NCBI RefSeq assembly: GCF_009914755.1
Contig: NC_060929.1
Source of the DNA: the human T2T-CHM13v2.0 reference genome, Homo sapiens
Reading direction: 5' to 3' (one strand)
Length of the DNA: 64,000 nt
The translations under genes and the position numbers were made by a program. The notes beneath the pieces were generated by a model, which did not search any database, had not been told where the DNA came from, and worked only from the letters and a program-made list of their open reading frames with translations. Positions 3,747 through 61,039 of the stretch are shown piece after piece. Numbering within the stretch: the stretch's first letter is position 1; the number at the start of each line of letters is the position of its first letter.

Positions 3747-3944
3747 TTTTTTTTCTTACAAACAGAGGTTTTATTGCATTTGGTCCACAGACATATTTCA
3801 CATTATCTCATGGAGCAGGGCCCCTGGGTGGGGGTCCCTGCGTAGTACTTGGCGGGGTGTGTGGCTGGGAGAGATGGCAAAGTATAGCTGCTCAGGCCCA
3901 AAAAGGGAGAAGGAAGGCTGGGGTCTCCTTAAAACCTACTGAAG
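3747..3944 (-). pseudogene. Probable retrocopied mRNA 3' UTR fragment, parent unidentified
   Basis: Minus strand: GC-rich unique sequence, AATAAA (3770-3775), then an A8 tract (3747-3754) 15 nt later. No clear TSD. Confidence 0.5.
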
Positions 3945-4189
3945 GGCCGGGCACGGTGCCTCATGCCTGTAATCCCAGCACTTGGGGAGGCCGAGGTGGG
4001 CAGATCACCTGAGGCCAGGAGTTAGAGACCAGCCTGGCTAACATGGTGAAACCCCATCTCTACTAAAAATATAAAAATTAGCCAGGCGTGGTGGAGTACC
4101 TGCAGTCCCAGCTACTTGGGAGGCTGAGGCAGGAGAATCCCCTGAGCCCAGGAGGTGGAGGTGCAGTGAGCCAAGATTGTGCCACTGCA
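3945..4189 (+). mobile_element. AluS, 3'-truncated with no A-tail
   Basis: GGCCGGGCACGGTG start, left arm, A-rich linker; right arm ends abruptly at gccactgca. Confidence 0.93.
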
Positions 4190-5946: not shown

Positions 5947-7790
5947 ACCATGTTAAAATGTCTCACACAGTGAGTTTAGAGGCTATCTAAAATTAAAGGA
6001 GGAAGTATTTGTGCAAAAGTAGCTATTTCTCTCACCCAGCCGAAATTAAGGAGATAAAAACTTATTTTATTAGTCCAGACAAGAAATGTTGAGAACTGGT
6101 ATAGGCAGTAAATTTGGAACTGGCAAAGAAAATGAGGTAAAGCAATGCAGAAGGTAACACAAGGGAAAATAAATGGCAATGTTTCCATCTGAGGGAGGGT
6201 TGGAGAATCTAAAAAATGCTGCTATCATGAAAAATGGAAAAAATGGAAAAATGGAAAAAACAGAATACAAAACTAGTTTGAAAGAAAAGAGTTGTACTTT
6301 GCACATAAATGTCTTAAGTATGAATGAAATTGAGTAAAAGGTTTCATATATATGTATACATACACACGTACGTATGTATGTATACATACACACGTACGTA
6401 TGTATGTATACATACACACGTACGTATGTATGTATACATACACACGTACGTATGTATGTATGTACGCATGTACGCATGCACGCACGTATGTATGCATATA
6501 TGTATGTATATGTATGTATGCATATATGTATGCATGTTTACATGTATGTATGCACATATGTATGTATGTTTACATGTATTTCTGCATACATATGTATGTA
6601 TTTCTGCATGCATATGTATTTCTGCATGCATATGTATTTCTGCATGCATACGTATGTATTTCTGCATACATATATATGTATGTGTTTCTGCATACATATA
6701 TATGTATGTGTTTCTGCATACATATATATGTATGTGTTTCTGCATACATATATATGTATGTGTTTCTGCATACATATATATGTATGTGTTTCTGCATACA
6801 TATATATGTATGTGTTTCTGCATACATATATATGTATGTGTTTCTGCATACATATATATGTATGTGTTTCTGCATACATATATATGTATGTGTTTCTGCA
6901 TACATATATATGTATGTGTTTCTGCATACATATATATGTATGTGTTTCTGCATACATATATATGTATGTGTTTCTGCATACATATATATGTATGTATTTG
7001 ACCATTGAGAGTTAGAGTTTGAGATATTTATAAAAAATCTATGAAAAATATTCTGGGATTTTTCAGTACCATATGGGAAATTATATGTCATTAGGAAGAG
7101 AAAACCAAGTATATTAAACTATCTAGGAAATGACCATAATTAATATTCAGGAGTAAAAAAGAAAAGACAGCAAGAGAGAGAAGAAACAGACGACCAGAGA
7201 ACCAACATATAATGAAAGTCTGGAAAGAGTTTCAAAAAGGTTGGAGTGATCAAGAGTAGCATATGTCATGAGGAAATCATAAAAGTTTTAAAACAACCAA
7301 TAGATGTATTCTGTATTTTTGAAAGCAGTTTCAGTAGAGTAGAAAGGGGAGGGAAATAAGGGTGAGGGGAAGCCAAGCTTGGTAGCAATTAGGACAACAG
7401 ATATGGTAAAGAATGGAAATTATTTAACCACATAGGTAGTGTTTGTCAGTAATAGACAGAAGAGATGCCATTATATATCCCAAATCTATGTTTGTGTGAT
7501 TGCAAATTTTCATTGGTTTTATCTGTAAACCTAAAACACTAGACTTAAATATGAATAATCCTGAGTCTTTAGTTGACTTAATGACCATATAAGCTCAAAT
7601 TTCCAGAAGCAATTTGCACCTTCTCCAACCCCTGGGGCCCAGAGAGAGTGGTCCTCTCCTGCCCAGCCACCATATTAAAATGTCTCATAGAGTGAGTTTA
7701 GAAGGCTCTCTAAAATTAAAGGAGGAAGTATTTGGGTAAAAGTTGCTATTTCTCTTATCCAGCTGAAGTTAAGGACATAACAGCTTTATT
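5947..7790 (+). repeat. Dispersed ~120-bp direct repeat pair (5947-6068 and 7669-7790) in SPINK6 intron 2
   Basis: Both copies contain ttaaaatgtctca..agtgagtttaga..ctaaaattaaaggaggaagtattt..aaagt.gctatttctct; roughly 85% identical by eye. Confidence 0.85.
6346..6997. repeat. Compound purine-pyrimidine VNTR with two different 26-bp units
   Basis: About 4 copies of tatacatacacacgtacgtatgtatg, a transition zone, then about 13 copies of tttctgcatacatatatatgtatgtg. Explains the overlapping ORFs at 6070-7091. Confidence 0.95.
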
Positions 7791-10416: not shown

Positions 10417-10532
10417 GTTGACTGTGGTGAGTTCCAGGACACCAAGGTCTACTGCACTCGGGAATCTAACCCACACTGTGGCTCTGATGGCCAGACATAT
10501 GGCAATAAATGTGCCTTCTGTAAGGCCATAGT
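10417..10532 (+). CDS. SPINK6: SPINK6 coding exon 3, Kazal domain core [39 protein letters not shown]
   Basis: Acceptor ttggtAG at 10415-10416, 116-nt exon, donor GTaagt at 10533. Five Kazal cysteines with C-x7-C and CGSDGxTYxNxCxxC motifs; P1 Arg in CTRE. Confidence 0.97.
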
Positions 10533-54500: not shown

Positions 54501-57339
54501 TCCCGTAAGGCAGGTTTGATGGTTAAAACAAAACAAAAACAAAAACAAAGAACCTCCCTCAGCATTTGCTTATCTAAAAACAATCTCATTGCTCTTTGGC
54601 TAAGGAAGCTTAGTTTGCGTAGATATTAAATTCTTGGCTTAAGAATTTTTCTTTAAGAATGTTGAATATAAACTCCCAAACTCTTCTGGCTTATAGGGTT
54701 TCTGCTGAGCAGTTCACTGTTAGCCTAATGGGCTTCCCTTTGTAGGGAAATGGCGGCTTTTTCTTGCTAGCTGCCTTTAACATTCCTTTTTTCATTTCAA
54801 CATTAGAAAATCTGGTGGTGATGTGTCTTGAGGATGATCTTTTTGTGTAGAATCTCACAGGGTTTTTCTCTGTTTCCTGAATTTGACTATTAGCTTCTCT
54901 AGTGGGGCTGGAGAAGTTTTCGTGATGATATCATGAAATATGTTTTCCAAGTTGTTTGCTTTCTTCCTGTCCCTTTCAGGGATGCAAATGATTCACAGAT
55001 TTGTCTTCCTTACATAATCCCATATTTCCCAGAGTTTTTGTTTCTTATTTTTTATTCTTTTATCTTTATTTTTGTCTGACTGTCTTATTTCAGAAAACCA
55101 CTCTTTAAGTTCTGATGTTCTTTCCTCAGTGTGGTCTATTCTGCTGTTAATATTTGTGATTGCCTTGTGAAATTCTCATCCTGTAGTGTGTTTTTTGCTC
55201 TATCACATGAGTTAGATTATTTTTTAAATCGGCTGTTTCATCTGTCAGCTCCTGTACACTTTTGTTGTGATTCTTAGTTTCCTTGGATTGAATTTTGGTC
55301 TTCTGCTGAATCTTGATGACCTTTTCTGTCCAGATTCTGAATTATATTTCTGTCATTTCTCCAGATTCTGGAGAGTTCACAAGGACCAGGGGCCTGGAGA
55401 CAGCAAGACAAGTGTTGTGAAACAGCAAAGACCACAACCCACCCCTCCTACTTGAAGCTCCAACCCAGGGAACTGCAAAGCTACTACTGGTTTGATACCC
55501 CTGGTTGGGGGAGTGGCTGGAGACTCAGCCCAGGAAGGATCCACCCAGTGAGAAGATATGGGATAGGGGACCCACATAACAAATAGTCTGGCTACCTTTG
55601 TGTAGGGCTGCTGCAGTATGCTGGGAGTCCACCACACTCCCTAGTCACCTCAGATTTTCCAGTATCTGAAGGTATCAACAGTGAAGGCTGTCAAACAGCA
55701 AAGATAGTGGCCTGCCCCTCCCTCTGAAAGCTCTGTCCCAGGGAGGTATGGACATGTTGTCAGCCCAAACACACCTGCAGGATGTGGCTGGAGACCCCAG
55801 TCAAGAGAGGCCACCCAGTGAGGAGAAACAGGATTGGGAAACTGCATAAACAGGATTGGGAATCTGGCTGCATTTTTTGTAGTGCATCTGTGCTGCACTG
55901 GAGGCCTACTCCAGCCTCCAGTCACCTCAGACTTTCCAAAGCCCAAAGGCAAGAACAACTAAGGCTGTCAAACATCACAGATGGTTATCTGTCCCTCCCT
56001 CTGGGAGCTTCATCCTAGGGAGGTATGCAATCACTGTCGGCTGGAGTTTGGATGACTGGAGACCCCAGGTGGCGATTTTGGCCAGTGAAGACAAATGGGA
56101 TCTGGGTTCCATGTGAATAAGCAGTCTAGCTGCCTCTCCATAGAGTTCCTGGGCTATGCCCTGGGACCACTCCAGTTCCTAATTGCCTTGGACTACCACT
56201 TCTTTGGGTTGGGGAAGCTCCCTTGGCTCTGGGTCACTCCTGGGAGGATTGTCATCCTGCCTTGCTTTTCTCCCTTCCCCATGGGTTATTTCTTTGATGA
56301 GTCCCAATGTGTGTACCTGGATCTTTCAACTGAAGGTGCTATATTTATTATTACTTGTCCCTTCCCTTCATGAGAGTGGCACACATTAGCTCCTTCTAGT
56401 TGGCCATCTTGGCCAACCTCCTTATAATTGTTTATAGTTTCATATTTTCTTTTTCTCTCTCAAACTCTACAAGTACTTGACCAAAGGATGAAATTTTTAA
56501 TTTGGTTTTAACTTTATTAATTTGAATTTTAAATCAGCAGCAGAAAAAGCTGAGCCCTGGGGCAGAGTGCATGACATTTTTATGTGTGAGGATTATCTGG
56601 AAAGAGGGGGCTTATAGTGAAGAGAGAGTCAGAAGCTAAAGGTTCCTGTCTTGCCTCCCTATATGTTTAACATGTAATAGGTGAAATTTCCCTCCCTACT
56701 TTGAGCCTTCTGCTCCCCCCATGTCCAATGAAATTAACCTCGATTAGGGCTCTCAAATTTTTATTCAGCAAAACAATCCTTTCCTCAAATAAATCATCCT
56801 CAAAACACCTGTATATATAACAGATTAATATGCCTGAGAGATGAGGGTCAGGCTGACTTTGGATGAGATTGGAATCTTACAACTGGATACTTTTTTCACA
56901 CCTAACACACACTCTACTCCACCCACAATGCTTTCACAGATTTTTTTGTAGTCATTTTTGTATTACTGTTTTAGATTTGGCAGACTAGCTCTAACCTTTT
57001 ATATTTCCCCTCTTTCCTTTTTCCTTCCATTTGAAACATGGTATGTCTAAGAAACTTAACACTTTTTTTTAAATTGTATTAATTTAAATCTAAATTTAAA
57101 TTGTCACAGGTCCTTTGACTAGTGACTACTGTGTTGGATGTGCAGGTCCTCAGTTCATCACATGAAACTGAGAAAGGGCACAAGCTTTATTTCTGAAAGC
57201 TTTTTTTCTGAAAGCTCTTTCCTGAGACACTCCTGCTCTACTGTGCCTCCTGTAGTCCTGGTAGGCTAACTCTCTTCTGCTTTTCCTCCTTTTACAACTG
57301 CTGCTCTCAGTTCCCAGAACCTGAGTTTATTCTACTCCA

Positions 57340-57492
<153 letters not shown>

Positions 57493-57729
57493 GAACCCCA
57501 TCATTTTTCTGCTGTTTTTCAATCATAGGTTGCTTCCAGGTCCCATCTGCTCTTGCATATGGAGCCACTTCTAATTCTTGAATTTCTCAAATACCTCACC
57601 TGTTACAATTTCTTGTGTTTTCCTATCATTTCAATTCTCATTTCTTCATCTTCTCTTGTCTCCCATTGTATTCTTCTTCAAAAAATGTTCTCACAGCTTT
57701 ACTCTTTATACACCCTCAAAATCTTAAAA

Positions 57730-58236
57730 TGGGGTCTTAAAATAGAAATCATAAGGCTAAAATAACAGATTCTTATGACAATAAGATCCAAATTCTAAAC
57801 ATGACCTAAGGCCATGCCAGACAAGGGTCAAATCATACACCCCTACAGGTCACTCTGACCCAGTGTATTGGTTAACAGACTTCCTGATTTTAACTTAAAC
57901 ATTCATTTCTGCTGACTCCATATATTTAGACTAAGCTTTATTCCTTTAGCCAATAGCAAATTAAATAATTTCTGAAACCACATATGACCTGTAAGCCATT
58001 TCAAGATATCCAATCTTTTAGGCCAAACCAATATATACAGTTCATGTATTAATTTATGACTTTGCCTGTAACTTCTACTTTCCTAAACTGTAAAAAACAG
58101 AGTTGTGACCTAACTGCCTCAAGACATCACACTCAAGGCTTCTTAGGTTTGTGTTGCCCTCTGGCTGTGGTCACTCATGTTGGCTCACAATAAACCTCCC
58201 TAAAATATTTTACATCGTTTGGGTTTTCCCTGAACA
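57730..58236 (+). mobile_element. ERV1 solo LTR (MER34/MER39-group-like)
   Basis: 3' end ggtcactcatgttggctcacAATAAAcctccctaaaatattttac..gggttttccctgaaCA is typical of this LTR group. 5' boundary approximate. Confidence 0.7.
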
Positions 58237-58701
58237 AGTCAAGTAATAAGAGTGCTCCCTACTGAATTAATAAATATATAAGTATTTTGCATCACTCAAT
58301 TTATTTGAGAAAAGAAGATATTTTACACTGAATATTGCCTTAATCACTCTTCCATTCAGGAGTCCTAGTGACTTCTTCATTGTCTAAATTTCAATCTAGG
58401 GAACATGAGGATGGTAGCCTAAATTTATTGAACACTGATTATTCACCAGGCCTTGCAAAAAGTGTTTTAAATCTGTTATTACACTTACTTTTCTCAAAAC
58501 TAGTTTGAAAAAATACAGTTCTCTTCTCTTCTTTCTATATGAGAAAACTGAGGTTTGAAGAGGCTAAAAATGTTTCTTAATTCCAGAAAGTTGGTTAATG
58601 ATGGTGCTGTTCCTGACCTCATTCTTCTGACTTTAGAGTCCATGTAATTACTTGCTGCAGTCTACAATATGGGTATGTGAAAACTCCTTTTCTCCTTGCA
58701 G

Positions 58702-58827
58702 CTGGATTGTGAGAAATATAATTCAAGGCACAGGAACATCTTGACATTCTGAGCTAATCCTCATCTCTGTGTGTGGTACAGATAGAACAAATCAGGATAA
58801 TCCTAGCCAACTGTCCATGGAAATCAA
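58702..58827 (+). pseudogene. Decayed Kazal-domain exon (SPINK exon-3 type)
   Basis: Acceptor ctccttttctccttgcAG; LDCEKY, then after a 1-nt shift GTS*HSELILISVCGTDRTNQDNPSQLSMEI; phase-2 donor AA|GTGAGG at 58828. Confidence 0.72.
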
Positions 58828-59994
58828 GTGAGGATATTAATAGGAGTATGATGTACAGTATAGGCTAATTATGCATGTCTACTTAGAATTCTTGCTTTTT
58901 AGAGCAGGAAGAGAGCAAGTCAACCACCCCATTTTACAGATGGACACACTGAGCTCCAGAGAGGGAAATGATTCCTTACTCATATTCCTTACTCATAATG
59001 ATTCCTTACTCATGTACATTAGAACTAGATCCCAGGTCTGCTGACTCCCAATCGAGGGCCCAAGTAGTATTGAGGTCTGCATCATGAGACAGTCAACTGT
59101 CAGGTTGTGGACCTGAGACACAAGGTGCATTATATTTCTACTGAATGTAATCTTAATCTCATCAGATTGTCTAAATATAAATTCTTTCCTTTTTCAGTGA
59201 TTTTGTCATCTGTGGCAACTTAGTTTCCTTCTTTTTAGCTAACCTTGGGAGTGACTTTGGCTTATGATGACTGTATTTTCTAAGCCTTTGACAGAGACAG
59301 TTCGTGTGTCCATGATTAAGCCATAAAAAGGCTTATTGGTGTCAGTCACATTCAGCATGAGTATACTCTCTGACCTTCTTTGTTTGAGGAGTATTTTGGA
59401 CTAGAAGTTCTTTCTGGTGTTTTCTTTTGAGGCCTCCCAGTTTCTCTGACCTATCCTGCTCCTACCTCGGAAATTTCTCAGTTGACTGGATCCTTTCTCT
59501 TCCTCTTCTCCAACCCCTGCTGACTGTATGCTCCACTACTATGACACCAATTCTGTCCACTTTCTTCCTTATTGATATGAATATACTAACTTTAAGCCCT
59601 CTGCCTCCAATGGGTTCAGTTTTTGAGAAATTCAGAAACCCCAAAAGCAACCACGTGTGGCCAAAGCCATTTTCTCCATCAAATTATATGTTAGAACAAA
59701 ATATTATATTAAGAGTCCTCCATAATATTAGAGGAAAGTTTTCACCCTCATTTAAGCAGATAACCTTAATATGTCCAATCTTCCAGAGAAAGAATTCTAA
59801 TAAAAATGTAAAGTGGGAACAGATGAGAACCAACTTTTATACAAATTAGTAAGTTTTATGCTTTTGTATTTGTACCTAACTCATTACTAAAATTTTTAAG
59901 TGAAATCTGTAAGGTTTCTATTTGTGTCAGTCTATATGTTTATACATGTTTGCTATGTATATCTGACATTTTTCTACCCCCAGATGGTATTGTC

Positions 59995-60289
59995 TTTTTT
60001 GTTTGTTTGAGACAGAGTCTTACTCTGTCACCAGGCTGGAGTGCAGTGGTGTGATCTCGGCTCACTGCCAACCTCTGCCTCCTGGGTTCAAGCTATCCTC
60101 CTGCCTCAGCCTCCTGAGTAGCCGGGACTACAGGCACACACCACCATGCCCAGCTAATTTTCTGTATTTTTAGTAGAGACGGGGTTTCACCATGTTGGCC
60201 AGGATGGTCTCGATCTCTTGACCTCATGATCCACCTGCCTCGGCCTCCCAAACTTTTGGGATTACAGGTGTGAGCCACTATGCCCGGCC
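59995..60289 (-). mobile_element. AluS (Sc/Sg-like)
   Basis: Complete antisense Alu; TSD tggtattgtc at 59985-59994 and 60290-60299. Confidence 0.93.
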
Positions 60290-60319
60290 TGGTATTGTCA
60301 TATTAATTTATAAAATATC

Positions 60320-60684
60320 TGTATTAGTCCATTTTCATACTGCCGATAAAGACTTACTCAAGACTGGGCAATTTACAAAAGAAAGGTTTAATGGACTCAC
60401 AGTTCCACGTGGCTGGGGAGGCCTCACAATCATGGTGGAAGGTGAAAGGCATGTCTCACATGGATGGCAGCAGGCAAAGAGAAAGAGTGAGAGCCAAGTG
60501 AAAGGGATTTCCCCTTATAAAACCGTCAGATATCATGAGACTTATTCACTACCACGAAAACAGTTTTGGGGAAACCAACCCCACGATTCAATTATCTCCC
60601 ACTGGTCCCTCCCACAACATGAGGAAATTATGGGAGCTACAATTCGAGATGAGATTTGGGTGGGAACACAGCCAAACTATATCA
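60320..60684 (-). mobile_element. THE1 solo LTR
   Basis: tgtattagtccattttcatactgc...acacagccaaactatatca; imperfect 5-bp TSD atatc/atctc. Confidence 0.92.
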
Positions 60685-61039
60685 ATCTCTTAAAAAGAAT
60701 TCTATTCTAATAGGCTTAGAAAAAAATAAGCACTTCCTTAAAACTCCCAGAAATTTAGTAACTAATCCAAATGTTTTTCAAGGGTATGTAATTTGTATAA
60801 ATCTTTGATAAGTAAGACATTTGATAGTATTGGCTAAATAAAATCAGATATGTGACTGAGTTGTCAGCATGAAGTATAATGGAGACATACATTTTATTCT
60901 ACTTGGGTTTACTATCCAAATAAGCTAATATTATATTTGATAGGTGTTGAATATTATAAAACTTATAAATCTGATTTTAATCAAAGTGAGTAATTATGCT
61001 AACAACTTTTTTTAGTGATGATTATGTTTTCAGCTAACA

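What the first reader, a model, noticed from the sequence alone, without database searches (positions are those of the whole stretch)
58684..58833. Decayed Kazal exon with intact splice sites
Seen: strong acceptor, then LDCEKY (Cys1) and a 1-nt frameshift. TGA falls at the Cys2 position (58742). HSELILISVC gives Kazal C-x7-C spacing if the near-duplicate CTAATC/CTCATC 6-mer is counted once. VCGTD-R has AGA for Gly, and DNP-S-QL-S-MEI has AGC and TCC, each one base from TGC, at the Cys4 and Cys5 positions, the same spacing as SPINK6 [16 protein letters not shown] phase-2 donor follows. Inference: a Kazal pseudo-exon with predicted ancestral P1 near Ser. Its many lesions imply it died well before the repeat-exon stop arose. 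I found no convincing terminal exon.
Basis: partly seen in the sequence, partly recalled or inferred. Interest (0 to 1): 0.8.

Follow-up and report, generated by a model that had tools for sequence, protein, structure and literature searches.

The report
Dead Kazal exon in SPINK cluster
This is a long-dead leftover of one exon of a Kazal-type protease-inhibitor gene, lying between MARCOL and SPINK13 in the human SPINK cluster; it is an ordinary relic of gene birth and death and no longer codes for anything.

Summary
Window 58702-58827 (+) is a real but dead Kazal-domain exon (psiA). The listed features are in the sequence. On its own the translation is not significant: no Pfam hit, absent from 85 genome-wide Kazal_1 matches, rank 44 of 6471 six-frame fragments.

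A paralogue settles it. The exon and about 0.7 kb of flanks match one other genomic place (E 8.9e-12), 60 kb downstream between SPINK7 and the SPINK9 Kazal exon (psiB). psiB passes the Pfam Kazal_1 cut-off (26.5 bits), keeps Cys1, Cys3 and Cys4, has SPINK9's exon length and cysteine layout, and has a terminal exon ending HMGSC-stop.

Corrections from aligning psiA to psiB and SPINK9:
- The TGA is codon 15, not Cys2.
- Cys2 is the TCT at 58748-58750.
- No 6-mer insertion is needed.
- The predicted P1 is Leu, not Ser.

The exon is no better conserved than its flanks, and codon-position differences are 6/6/8, so both copies look neutral since an old duplication. No other psiA exon was found. Orthologues in other mammals could not be examined.

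Verdict: a low-interest, apparently unannotated pseudo-exon.

The parts
58240..58701 (+). Upstream intronic flank homologous to the flank of the paralogue psiB
   Evidence: 58240-58983 aligns to window-extended 118287-119017 (E 1.7e-51); 264 of 412 aligned bases identical (64.1%); the genome-wide tool found no other long match.
58682..58701 (+). Acceptor: polypyrimidine tract plus CAG
   Evidence: aactccttttctccttgcag. It is homologous to the psiB acceptor ...gcttgcag. psiA carries about 10 extra pyrimidine-rich bases.
58702..58827 (+). psiA: decayed Kazal-domain exon, 126 nt
   Evidence: 88 of 126 bases identical to de-duplicated psiB. It has the same start (two codons before Cys1) and the same phase-2 end as the SPINK6/7/9 Kazal exons.
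58708..58710 (+). Cys1 codon TGT, retained
   Evidence: LDCEKY. It aligns with VDC/VNC of SPINK6/7/9, L011a and psiB.
58722..58723 (+). Approximate place of a net 2-nt loss (frameshift); the exact place depends on the alignment
   Evidence: psiA has 40 nt and psiB 42 nt between the acceptor and the TGA. The pairwise alignment puts the gap after 58722.
58742..58744 (+). In-frame TGA, codon 15 of the SPINK9-type layout; the same codon is TGA in psiB
   Evidence: SPINK9 has AGA (Arg) here. The psiB-like ORF P0003 from an unnamed contig has Trp.
58748..58750 (+). Cys2 position, now TCT (Ser)
   Evidence: codon 17. psiB has TGG and SPINK9 has TGT. This gives C2-x7-C3, as in all six intact cluster exons aligned.
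58754..58756 (+). Predicted P1 codon, CTA (Leu)
   Evidence: Leu in psiA and psiB. Placing P1 two residues after Cys2 is established knowledge of classical Kazal inhibitors (recalled).
58772..58774 (+). Cys3 codon TGT, retained, in the VCGT motif
   Evidence: codon 25, identical in psiB. It is the only stretch the local Kazal HMM aligns in psiA.
58805..58807 (+). Cys4 position, now AGC (Ser)
   Evidence: codon 36. psiB keeps TGC.
58814..58816 (+). Cys5 position, now TCC (Ser)
   Evidence: codon 39. psiB has TAC; SPINK9 has TGT.
58828..58833 (+). Donor GTGAGG, phase 2
   Evidence: psiB has AG|gtaaag at the same place. SPINK6/7/9 have phase 2.
58828..59071 (+). Downstream intronic flank homologous to psiB, including an old dispersed-repeat core (about 58905-58975; MIR-like by recalled consensus)
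   Evidence: 154 of 223 aligned bases, 69.1%; besides psiB, two short matches on other chromosomes to the core.

Best explanation
Window 58702-58827 (+) is the non-functional remnant (psiA) of the main Kazal-domain exon of a single-domain SPINK gene of the SPINK7/SPINK9 type.

The exon would have encoded, from an acceptor two codons before Cys1 to a phase-2 donor three codons after Cys5, the layout C1-x13-C2-x7-C3-x10-C4-x2-C5, with Leu at the predicted P1.

Today it carries:
- a 2-nt loss after Cys1
- an in-frame TGA at codon 15
- Cys2, Cys4 and Cys5 each changed to Ser.

No signal-peptide exon and no terminal (Cys6) exon can be found, so no inhibitor can be made.

Its closest relative is a second relic, psiB, 60 kb downstream between SPINK7 and the SPINK9 Kazal exon. 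The two arose by an old duplication that carried exon and flanking intron, including an already inserted dispersed repeat. Both have drifted neutrally for most or all of the time since.

Shown: the homology, the lesions, the layout, and the lack of excess exon conservation. Inferred: the age (of the order of 100 million years), and that the copy was disabled at or soon after duplication, possibly as a partial copy.
For: Homology to psiB:
- Genome-wide DNA search of 58650-58880 finds one other place, psiB, at 75% identity and E 8.9e-12.
- The homology runs collinearly over 58240-59071 against 118287-119082.

psiB is Kazal:
- Pfam Kazal_1 E 6.7e-6, 26.5 bits against a cut-off of 21, and Kazal_2 25.6 bits.
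- It is listed in the genome-wide PF00050 scan at 24.4 bits.
- It is rank 5 of 6471 fragments, after the four real exons, with a model built without it.
- De-duplicated psiB is 128 nt, the same as the SPINK9 exon, with C3, W17, C25, C36, Y39 against SPINK9's C3, C17, C25, C36, C39.
- A terminal exon ending HMGSC-stop lies 1.24 kb downstream. It is the best non-training hit, E 0.049, with psiB left out of the model.

The joint profile is Kazal:
- A profile of psiA plus psiB finds 651 library proteins at E<=0.001. All 5 top hits sampled are Kazal by Pfam.
- In the PDB, 28 sequences hit at E<=1, and all but one carry Kazal-type names.

Neutral drift:
- Exon identity is 88/126 (69.8%) against flanks at 64.1% and 69.1%.
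- Differences by codon position are 6/6/8 over 28 codons.
Against: psiA alone does not reach significance as Kazal:
- 0 Pfam families at E<=10.
- Not among the 85 genome-wide PF00050 matches.
- 4.7 bits, E 14, rank 44 of 6471; its N-terminal piece is rank 194.
- No DNA similarity to any intact Kazal exon of the cluster.

The case is therefore transitive, through psiB.

Other gaps:
- No other psiA exon was found, so it may never have belonged to a whole gene.
- The 3' part of the exon (76% identity) is somewhat better kept than the flanks, which leaves room for an early period of constraint.
- No sequence from another mammal at this locus could be examined, and there are no expression data.
Confidence: 0.85

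Rival explanations
1. psiA is the human remnant of a complete SPINK gene that stayed functional long after the duplication and is still intact in other mammals. One candidate is a rodent Spink gene reported to have no human orthologue. On this view psiA is a unitary pseudogene lost on the primate lineage.
For: - The lesions at Cys2, Cys4, Cys5 and the frameshifts differ between psiA and psiB, so they arose independently.
- The 3' exon part is 76% identical against 64-69% for the flanks.
- One paper states, in passages I read, that mouse Spink10 has no known human orthologue (PMC10291479).
Against: - The TGA at codon 15 is shared by both copies.
- There is no third-position excess (6/6/8).
- No terminal or upstream exon was detected.
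- No intact close relative appears among the 150 listed hits, but that list is crowded by multi-domain proteins and cut at 51 bits, so this is weak.
Confidence: 0.3
2. The exon is alive as RNA. Its good acceptor and donor let it be spliced into a non-coding or read-through transcript, for instance upstream of SPINK13 6.5 kb downstream, where it could act as a non-coding or poison exon.
For: AG and GT are retained, the polypyrimidine tract is strong, and the acceptor tract is longer than in psiB.
Against: - The RefSeq table supplied with the finding has no transcript here.
- Retention of four splice bases is expected by chance in nearly half of cases at this divergence (inference).
- The exon is no better conserved than its flanks.
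- No RNA family matches at the exon.
Confidence: 0.08
3. The Kazal likeness is a chance resemblance in unique intergenic DNA.
For: psiA alone scores 4.7 bits at rank 44 of 6471, with no Pfam hit.
Against: - psiA is homologous to psiB with E 8.9e-12 genome-wide.
- psiB passes the Pfam cut-off and has a terminal exon.
- Exon boundaries, phases and cysteine places coincide codon for codon.
Confidence: 0.03
4. The exon once belonged to the neighbouring MARCOL gene as a downstream Kazal exon, which the reader's 'repeat-exon stop' remark seems to imply.
For: Same strand, 19 kb downstream of the MARCOL stop (the supplied gene table).
Against: - The paralogue psiB has its own SPINK-type terminal exon and sits among single-domain SPINK genes with no collagen-like neighbour.
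- The exon starts like every single-domain SPINK Kazal exon of the cluster.
Confidence: 0.03

Closest known systems
psiB, a Kazal pseudogene relic at chr5:148856696-148856858 plus a terminal exon at 148858099-148858133 (T2T), not in the supplied gene table
   Same: It is the only genomic homologue. The exon is 69.8% identical, the flanks are collinear, and the acceptor, donor and phase are the same. Both have TGA at codon 15, Arg at the usual Gly place, and Leu at the predicted P1.
   Different: psiB keeps Cys4. It has TGG and TAC where psiA has TCT and TCC. It carries a 35/36-nt tandem duplication instead of the 2-nt loss. It still has a terminal exon, with an 11-nt deletion.
SPINK9 (LEKTI-2) Kazal exon
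   Same: The exon length (128 nt) and the codon numbers of all five cysteines are identical to the psiB/psiA layout, and start and phase are the same.
   Different: SPINK9 is intact and has a different reactive loop (C-H-H-M against C-E-L-I). DNA similarity is not above background (60% in a gapped global alignment; no BLAST hit).
SPINK7 (ECRG2)
   Same: It is the neighbour of psiB. Its terminal-exon peptide GRVQFLHDGSC is the closest to psiB's GRVNHSHMGSC, and it has the same exon plan.
   Different: It has one codon fewer between Cys1 and Cys2 and is intact. In the PDB search with the psi profile it scores only E 0.62.
SPINK2 (PDB 2jxd)
   Same: It is the best full-length single-domain PDB match to the psiA+psiB profile (E 1.3e-4). 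It shares VCG..tY.N.C.L.MKIR after the reactive loop.
   Different: It lies on another chromosome (recalled). The similarity is at family level only.

Membership tests
Kazal-type inhibitor domain (Pfam PF00050/PF07648) | Profile score above the curated cut-off | tested here: not met
   psiA: 0 families at E<=10 and not among the 85 genome-wide matches. With the local model it scores 4.7 bits. Its paralogue psiB meets the cut-off (26.5 and 25.6 bits).
Kazal-type inhibitor domain (Pfam PF00050/PF07648) | Six cysteines with spacing C2-x7-C3-x10-C4-x2-C5 | tested here: not met
   Only Cys1 and Cys3 remain. Cys2, Cys4 and Cys5 are Ser codons, each one base from TGY, and they sit at exactly the expected spacing. 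The Cys6 exon was not found. The spacing of the relic positions is met; the residues are not.
Kazal-type inhibitor domain (Pfam PF00050/PF07648) | Open reading frame through the domain | tested here: not met
   A 2-nt loss and a TGA at 58742.
5q32 SPINK cluster genes, by descent (pseudogene member) | Kazal exon that starts two codons before Cys1 in phase 0 and ends in phase 2, three codons after Cys5 | tested here: met
   the same as SPINK6, SPINK7, SPINK9 and psiB.
5q32 SPINK cluster genes, by descent (pseudogene member) | Significant sequence homology to another cluster member | tested here: met
   To psiB only (E 8.9e-12, E 2e-21 within 164 kb). There is none to the intact exons.
5q32 SPINK cluster genes, by descent (pseudogene member) | Companion exons: signal peptide, short exon 2, terminal exon with Cys6 and stop | tested here: not met
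   Terminal exon: the best nhmmer hit downstream of psiA has E 0.28 or E 1.8 and is not exon-like. Upstream: only Alu/L1 similarity. The signal-peptide search had no power, because the controls also failed.
5q32 SPINK cluster genes, by descent (pseudogene member) | Orthologue in other mammals | not testable with these tools
   No mammalian genomes are held. The only cross-species sequence met was P0003, a psiB-like ORF from an unnamed contig. A search with the psiA read-through found none.

The most novel reading that the evidence does not exclude
psiA and psiB are the human remains of a lost lineage of SPINK7/9-type inhibitors with Leu at P1, which would point to a chymotrypsin- or elastase-like target. 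That lineage may survive intact in other mammals, possibly as the rodent Spink genes said to lack human orthologues. The two relics would then date the loss of an epithelial or reproductive protease inhibitor on the primate line. psiA's well-kept splice sites might still allow exonisation.
Probability: 0.25. Interest if true: 0.45.

Novelty: new member of a known kind. Interest (0 to 1): 0.25.

Why it matters
The 5q32 SPINK cluster (SPINK5, 6, 7, 9, 13, 14) controls kallikrein activity in skin and mucosa. Two unlisted relics show that the cluster once held at least two more SPINK7/9-type copies, and that it evolves by duplication and decay. This gives anchors for working out orthology with the rodent-only Spink genes. 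It also marks a spliceable pseudo-exon that annotation or variant-interpretation pipelines could mistake for coding sequence. Beyond that it is an ordinary pseudogene fragment.

Tried and rejected
- Pfam on the psiA translation: nothing.
- Genome-wide PF00050 scan: psiA is not listed.
- Local Kazal HMM over all 6471 six-frame fragments of 144 kb: psiA is rank 44 and not significant.
- Sensitive blastn of psiA and psiB against 164 kb of the cluster: no similarity to the intact Kazal exons.
- Search for a psiA terminal exon by regex and by nhmmer with and without psiB in the model: only noise. The best hit was inspected and rejected.
- Search for upstream exons by DNA comparison with the SPINK6/7/9/13 gene regions: only Alu/L1.
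- tblastn with the SPINK7 signal-peptide exon: noise, and also noise in the positive controls, so the test is uninformative.
- Word-index protein search with the psiB read-through: one hit, a psiB-like ORF that reads through into the intron. With the psiA read-through: none.
- Exhaustive profile search: Kazal proteins only. No full-length single-domain close relative appears among the 150 listed, but the list is dominated by multi-domain proteins.
- ESM Atlas: not usable.
- Rfam over 56500-61000: only Alu-derived matches away from the exon.
- Literature: four searches and passages of three papers gave no description of Kazal pseudogenes in this cluster. Subscription journals and annotation sets such as GENCODE were not searchable.
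- Rejected readings: TGA as Cys2, the 6-mer duplication, and P1 = Ser.

Full report
**What is there**

The window is T2T chr5:148738001-148802000. At 58682-58833 (+) the sequence reads ...aactccttttctccttgcag|CTGGATTGTGAG...GAAATCAA|gtgagg. The acceptor has 14 of 16 pyrimidines at -20..-5 and ends in CAG. The donor GT is at 58828-58829, so the exon is 58702-58827 (126 nt), one base shorter than a reading that puts AAG in the exon.

Frame 0 gives LDCEKYNSRHRNI. One base further on, a second frame gives TGA (58742), then HSELILISVCGTDRTNQDNPSQLSMEI, then two bases of a split codon.

The SPINK6 Kazal exon in the same window (10417-10532) begins ag|VDC and ends phase 2, three codons after Cys5. 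Its spacing is C-x10-C-x2-C. The candidate repeats this as C-x10-S(AGC)-x2-S(TCC).

**Is psiA more than chance on its own?**

No, not at protein level.
- Pfam finds nothing for the 27-residue piece even at E<=10.
- A six-frame scan of the whole genome with Kazal_1 lists 85 matches at E<=10. These include SPINK6, 13, 7 and 9 and the SPINK5 domains, but not this site.
- I built an HMM from six intact Kazal exons of the cluster. With it, the piece ranks 44th of 6471 stop-to-stop fragments of the 144-kb region (4.7 bits, E 14). The N-terminal piece ranks 194th.
- Neither psiA nor its paralogue shows DNA similarity to any intact Kazal exon.

**The paralogue decides it**

A genome-wide DNA search with 58650-58880 finds exactly one other place: chr5:148856773-148856886, 75% identical, E 8.9e-12. 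I call it psiB. It lies 60 kb downstream, between the end of SPINK7 and the Kazal exon of SPINK9.

The homology is collinear over 58240-59071 against 118287-119082 in window-extended coordinates. It includes a dispersed-repeat core downstream of the exon. That core has two further short matches on other chromosomes, and by recalled consensus it is MIR-like. So exon and intron were copied together, after that repeat had been inserted.

psiB is recognisably Kazal:
- Its 28-residue piece HWELIFTPVCGTHRKTYVNPCQLYMKIR scores 26.5 bits with Kazal_1 (cut-off 21) and 25.6 bits with Kazal_2.
- It appears in the genome-wide scan at 24.4 bits.
- It ranks fifth of 6471 fragments, directly after the four real exons, with a model that did not contain it.
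- A terminal exon lies 1.24 kb downstream, ttcttag|GAAGAGTAA...CACATGGGAAGCTGCTAA. It ends HMGSC-stop and has an 11-nt deletion relative to five paralogues. With psiB left out of the model it is still the best non-training hit in 144 kb (E 0.049).

A profile of psiB with the two psiA pieces behaves as Kazal:
- It finds 651 proteins at E<=0.001 in the 1.84-billion library. All 5 of the top hits I sampled are Kazal proteins by Pfam.
- In the PDB it finds 28 sequences at E<=1. All but one have Kazal-type names, among them rhodniin, SPINK2, ovomucoid, SPINK5 and SPINK1.

**Anatomy by alignment**

psiB carries a 35/36-nt tandem duplication of the stretch beginning at Cys1. With one copy removed (computed, not typed) the exon is 128 nt, exactly the length of the SPINK9 exon. 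It reads VNCNRYIDHNTSIL*HWELIFTPVCGTHRKTYVNPCQLYMKI. That is C3, W17, C25, C36, Y39 against SPINK9's C3, C17, C25, C36, C39.

psiA aligns to this with 88 of 126 identical bases and one 2-nt gap.

| Layout position | psiA | psiB | SPINK9 |
|---|---|---|---|
| Cys1 (codon 3) | TGT, 58708 | TGT | TGC |
| Between the acceptor and codon 15 | 40 nt (net 2-nt loss, near 58722) | 42 nt | 42 nt |
| Codon 15 | TGA, 58742 | TGA | AGA (Arg) |
| Cys2 (codon 17) | TCT, 58748 | TGG | TGT |
| Cys3 (codon 25) | TGT, 58772 | TGT | TGT |
| Cys4 (codon 36) | AGC, 58805 | TGC | TGC |
| Cys5 (codon 39) | TCC, 58814 | TAC | TGT |

After Cys5 come three codons and a phase-2 donor.

- The TGA is not at Cys2. C2-x7-C3 holds without editing, as it does in all six intact exons aligned.
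- The CTAATC/CTCATC pair is not an insertion, because psiB has the same 18 nt there.
- The predicted P1, two residues after Cys2 (established for classical Kazal inhibitors, recalled), is Leu in both copies, not Ser.

The AGA at the usual Gly place is shared with psiB and is therefore ancestral to both copies.

**History**

- Exon identity is 69.8%. The flanks are 64.1% (264 of 412) and 69.1% (154 of 223) identical.
- In the ungapped 28 codons from the TGA onward, differences fall 6/6/8 on codon positions 1/2/3. Three changes are synonymous and 12 are non-synonymous. This is the pattern of neutral drift.
- That stretch is 76% identical, which leaves room for a short early period of constraint.
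- Raw divergence is about one third. This corresponds to about 0.44 substitutions per site by Jukes-Cantor (my arithmetic). With commonly used mammalian neutral rates (recalled) that is of the order of 100 million years. It is an inference with wide error.
- Only the TGA is a shared lesion. The cysteine losses and the frameshifts are independent.
- P0003, an ORF from an unnamed contig, is 81% identical to the psiB read-through and continues into the intron. It has Trp at the TGA codon and Arg at Cys1. So psiB is also decayed in that source.
- I could not find any other psiA exon.

It remains open whether psiA was a whole gene that lost its other exons or a partial copy that was dead on arrival.

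**Splice sites**

AG and GT are kept in both relics. At about 15-18% change per lineage, four bases survive together in nearly half of cases (inference). Their intactness therefore needs no selection. Whether the exon is ever spliced cannot be tested here.

**Other strand and surroundings**

- No open frame longer than 66 residues overlaps 58400-59100 on either strand.
- Rfam finds only Alu-derived matches at 57398-57457 and 60007-60288.
- Local repeats are trivial.

**What is known**

The RefSeq table supplied with the finding has nothing between MARCOL and SPINK13. Four literature searches and the passages I read in three papers mention no Kazal pseudogene in this cluster.
- PMC10291479 says mouse Spink10 has no known human orthologue and calls Spink12 a putative SPINK9 orthologue (passages).
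- PMC13639018 lists SPINK10-12 as human 'SPINK-like' paralogues without evidence (passages).

Non-open journals, GENCODE and paper supplements were not examined.

**Verdict**

This is a genuine but long-dead Kazal exon, a new and apparently unlisted member of a well-known kind. Interest is low.

Noticed in passing
L002 1424-1586 and L008 about 6099-6133 (chr5:148856696-148856858 and 148858099-148858133): psiB is a second Kazal pseudogene relic between SPINK7 and the SPINK9 Kazal exon, inside the RefSeq SPINK9 span. It has a Kazal exon with a 35/36-nt tandem duplication, a TGA, and Cys2 changed to Trp and Cys5 to Tyr. It also has a terminal exon with an 11-nt deletion.
   Followed up: yes
L011 3819-3938, 6814-6924 and 7392-7427 (chr5:148683819-148687427): Two Kazal exons with all cysteines intact lie between SPINK5 and SPINK14, where the supplied gene table lists nothing. 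One scores 59.4 bits, the best PF00050 match in the genome; the other scores 40.8 bits. A matching terminal exon (KSQGAIWLKNYGLC-stop) follows. The first exon lacks GT at the paralogous donor place. This could be an unlisted SPINK gene or a young pseudogene.
   Followed up: partly
L008 about 3816-3950 (window-extended 117816-117950): The RefSeq SPINK9 span begins in a sequence whose translation (MELKAKARELHEECKSLRSRCDQLEERVSVMEDEMN) looks like L1 ORF1 (label recalled). So the long SPINK9 span probably reflects a repeat-derived alternative first exon.
   Followed up: no
window 58967-59021: A small local triplication of about 13-17 nt (AATGATTCCTTACTCAT...) sits inside the downstream flank. It is absent from psiB, where the alignment shows a 29-nt gap.
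   Followed up: no
window 57343-57493 and 59987-60316: Alu-type elements flank the relic (Rfam SRP-like matches and many cluster-wide BLAST hits). The downstream one sits about where a terminal exon would be expected from psiB's 1.24-kb intron.
   Followed up: partly
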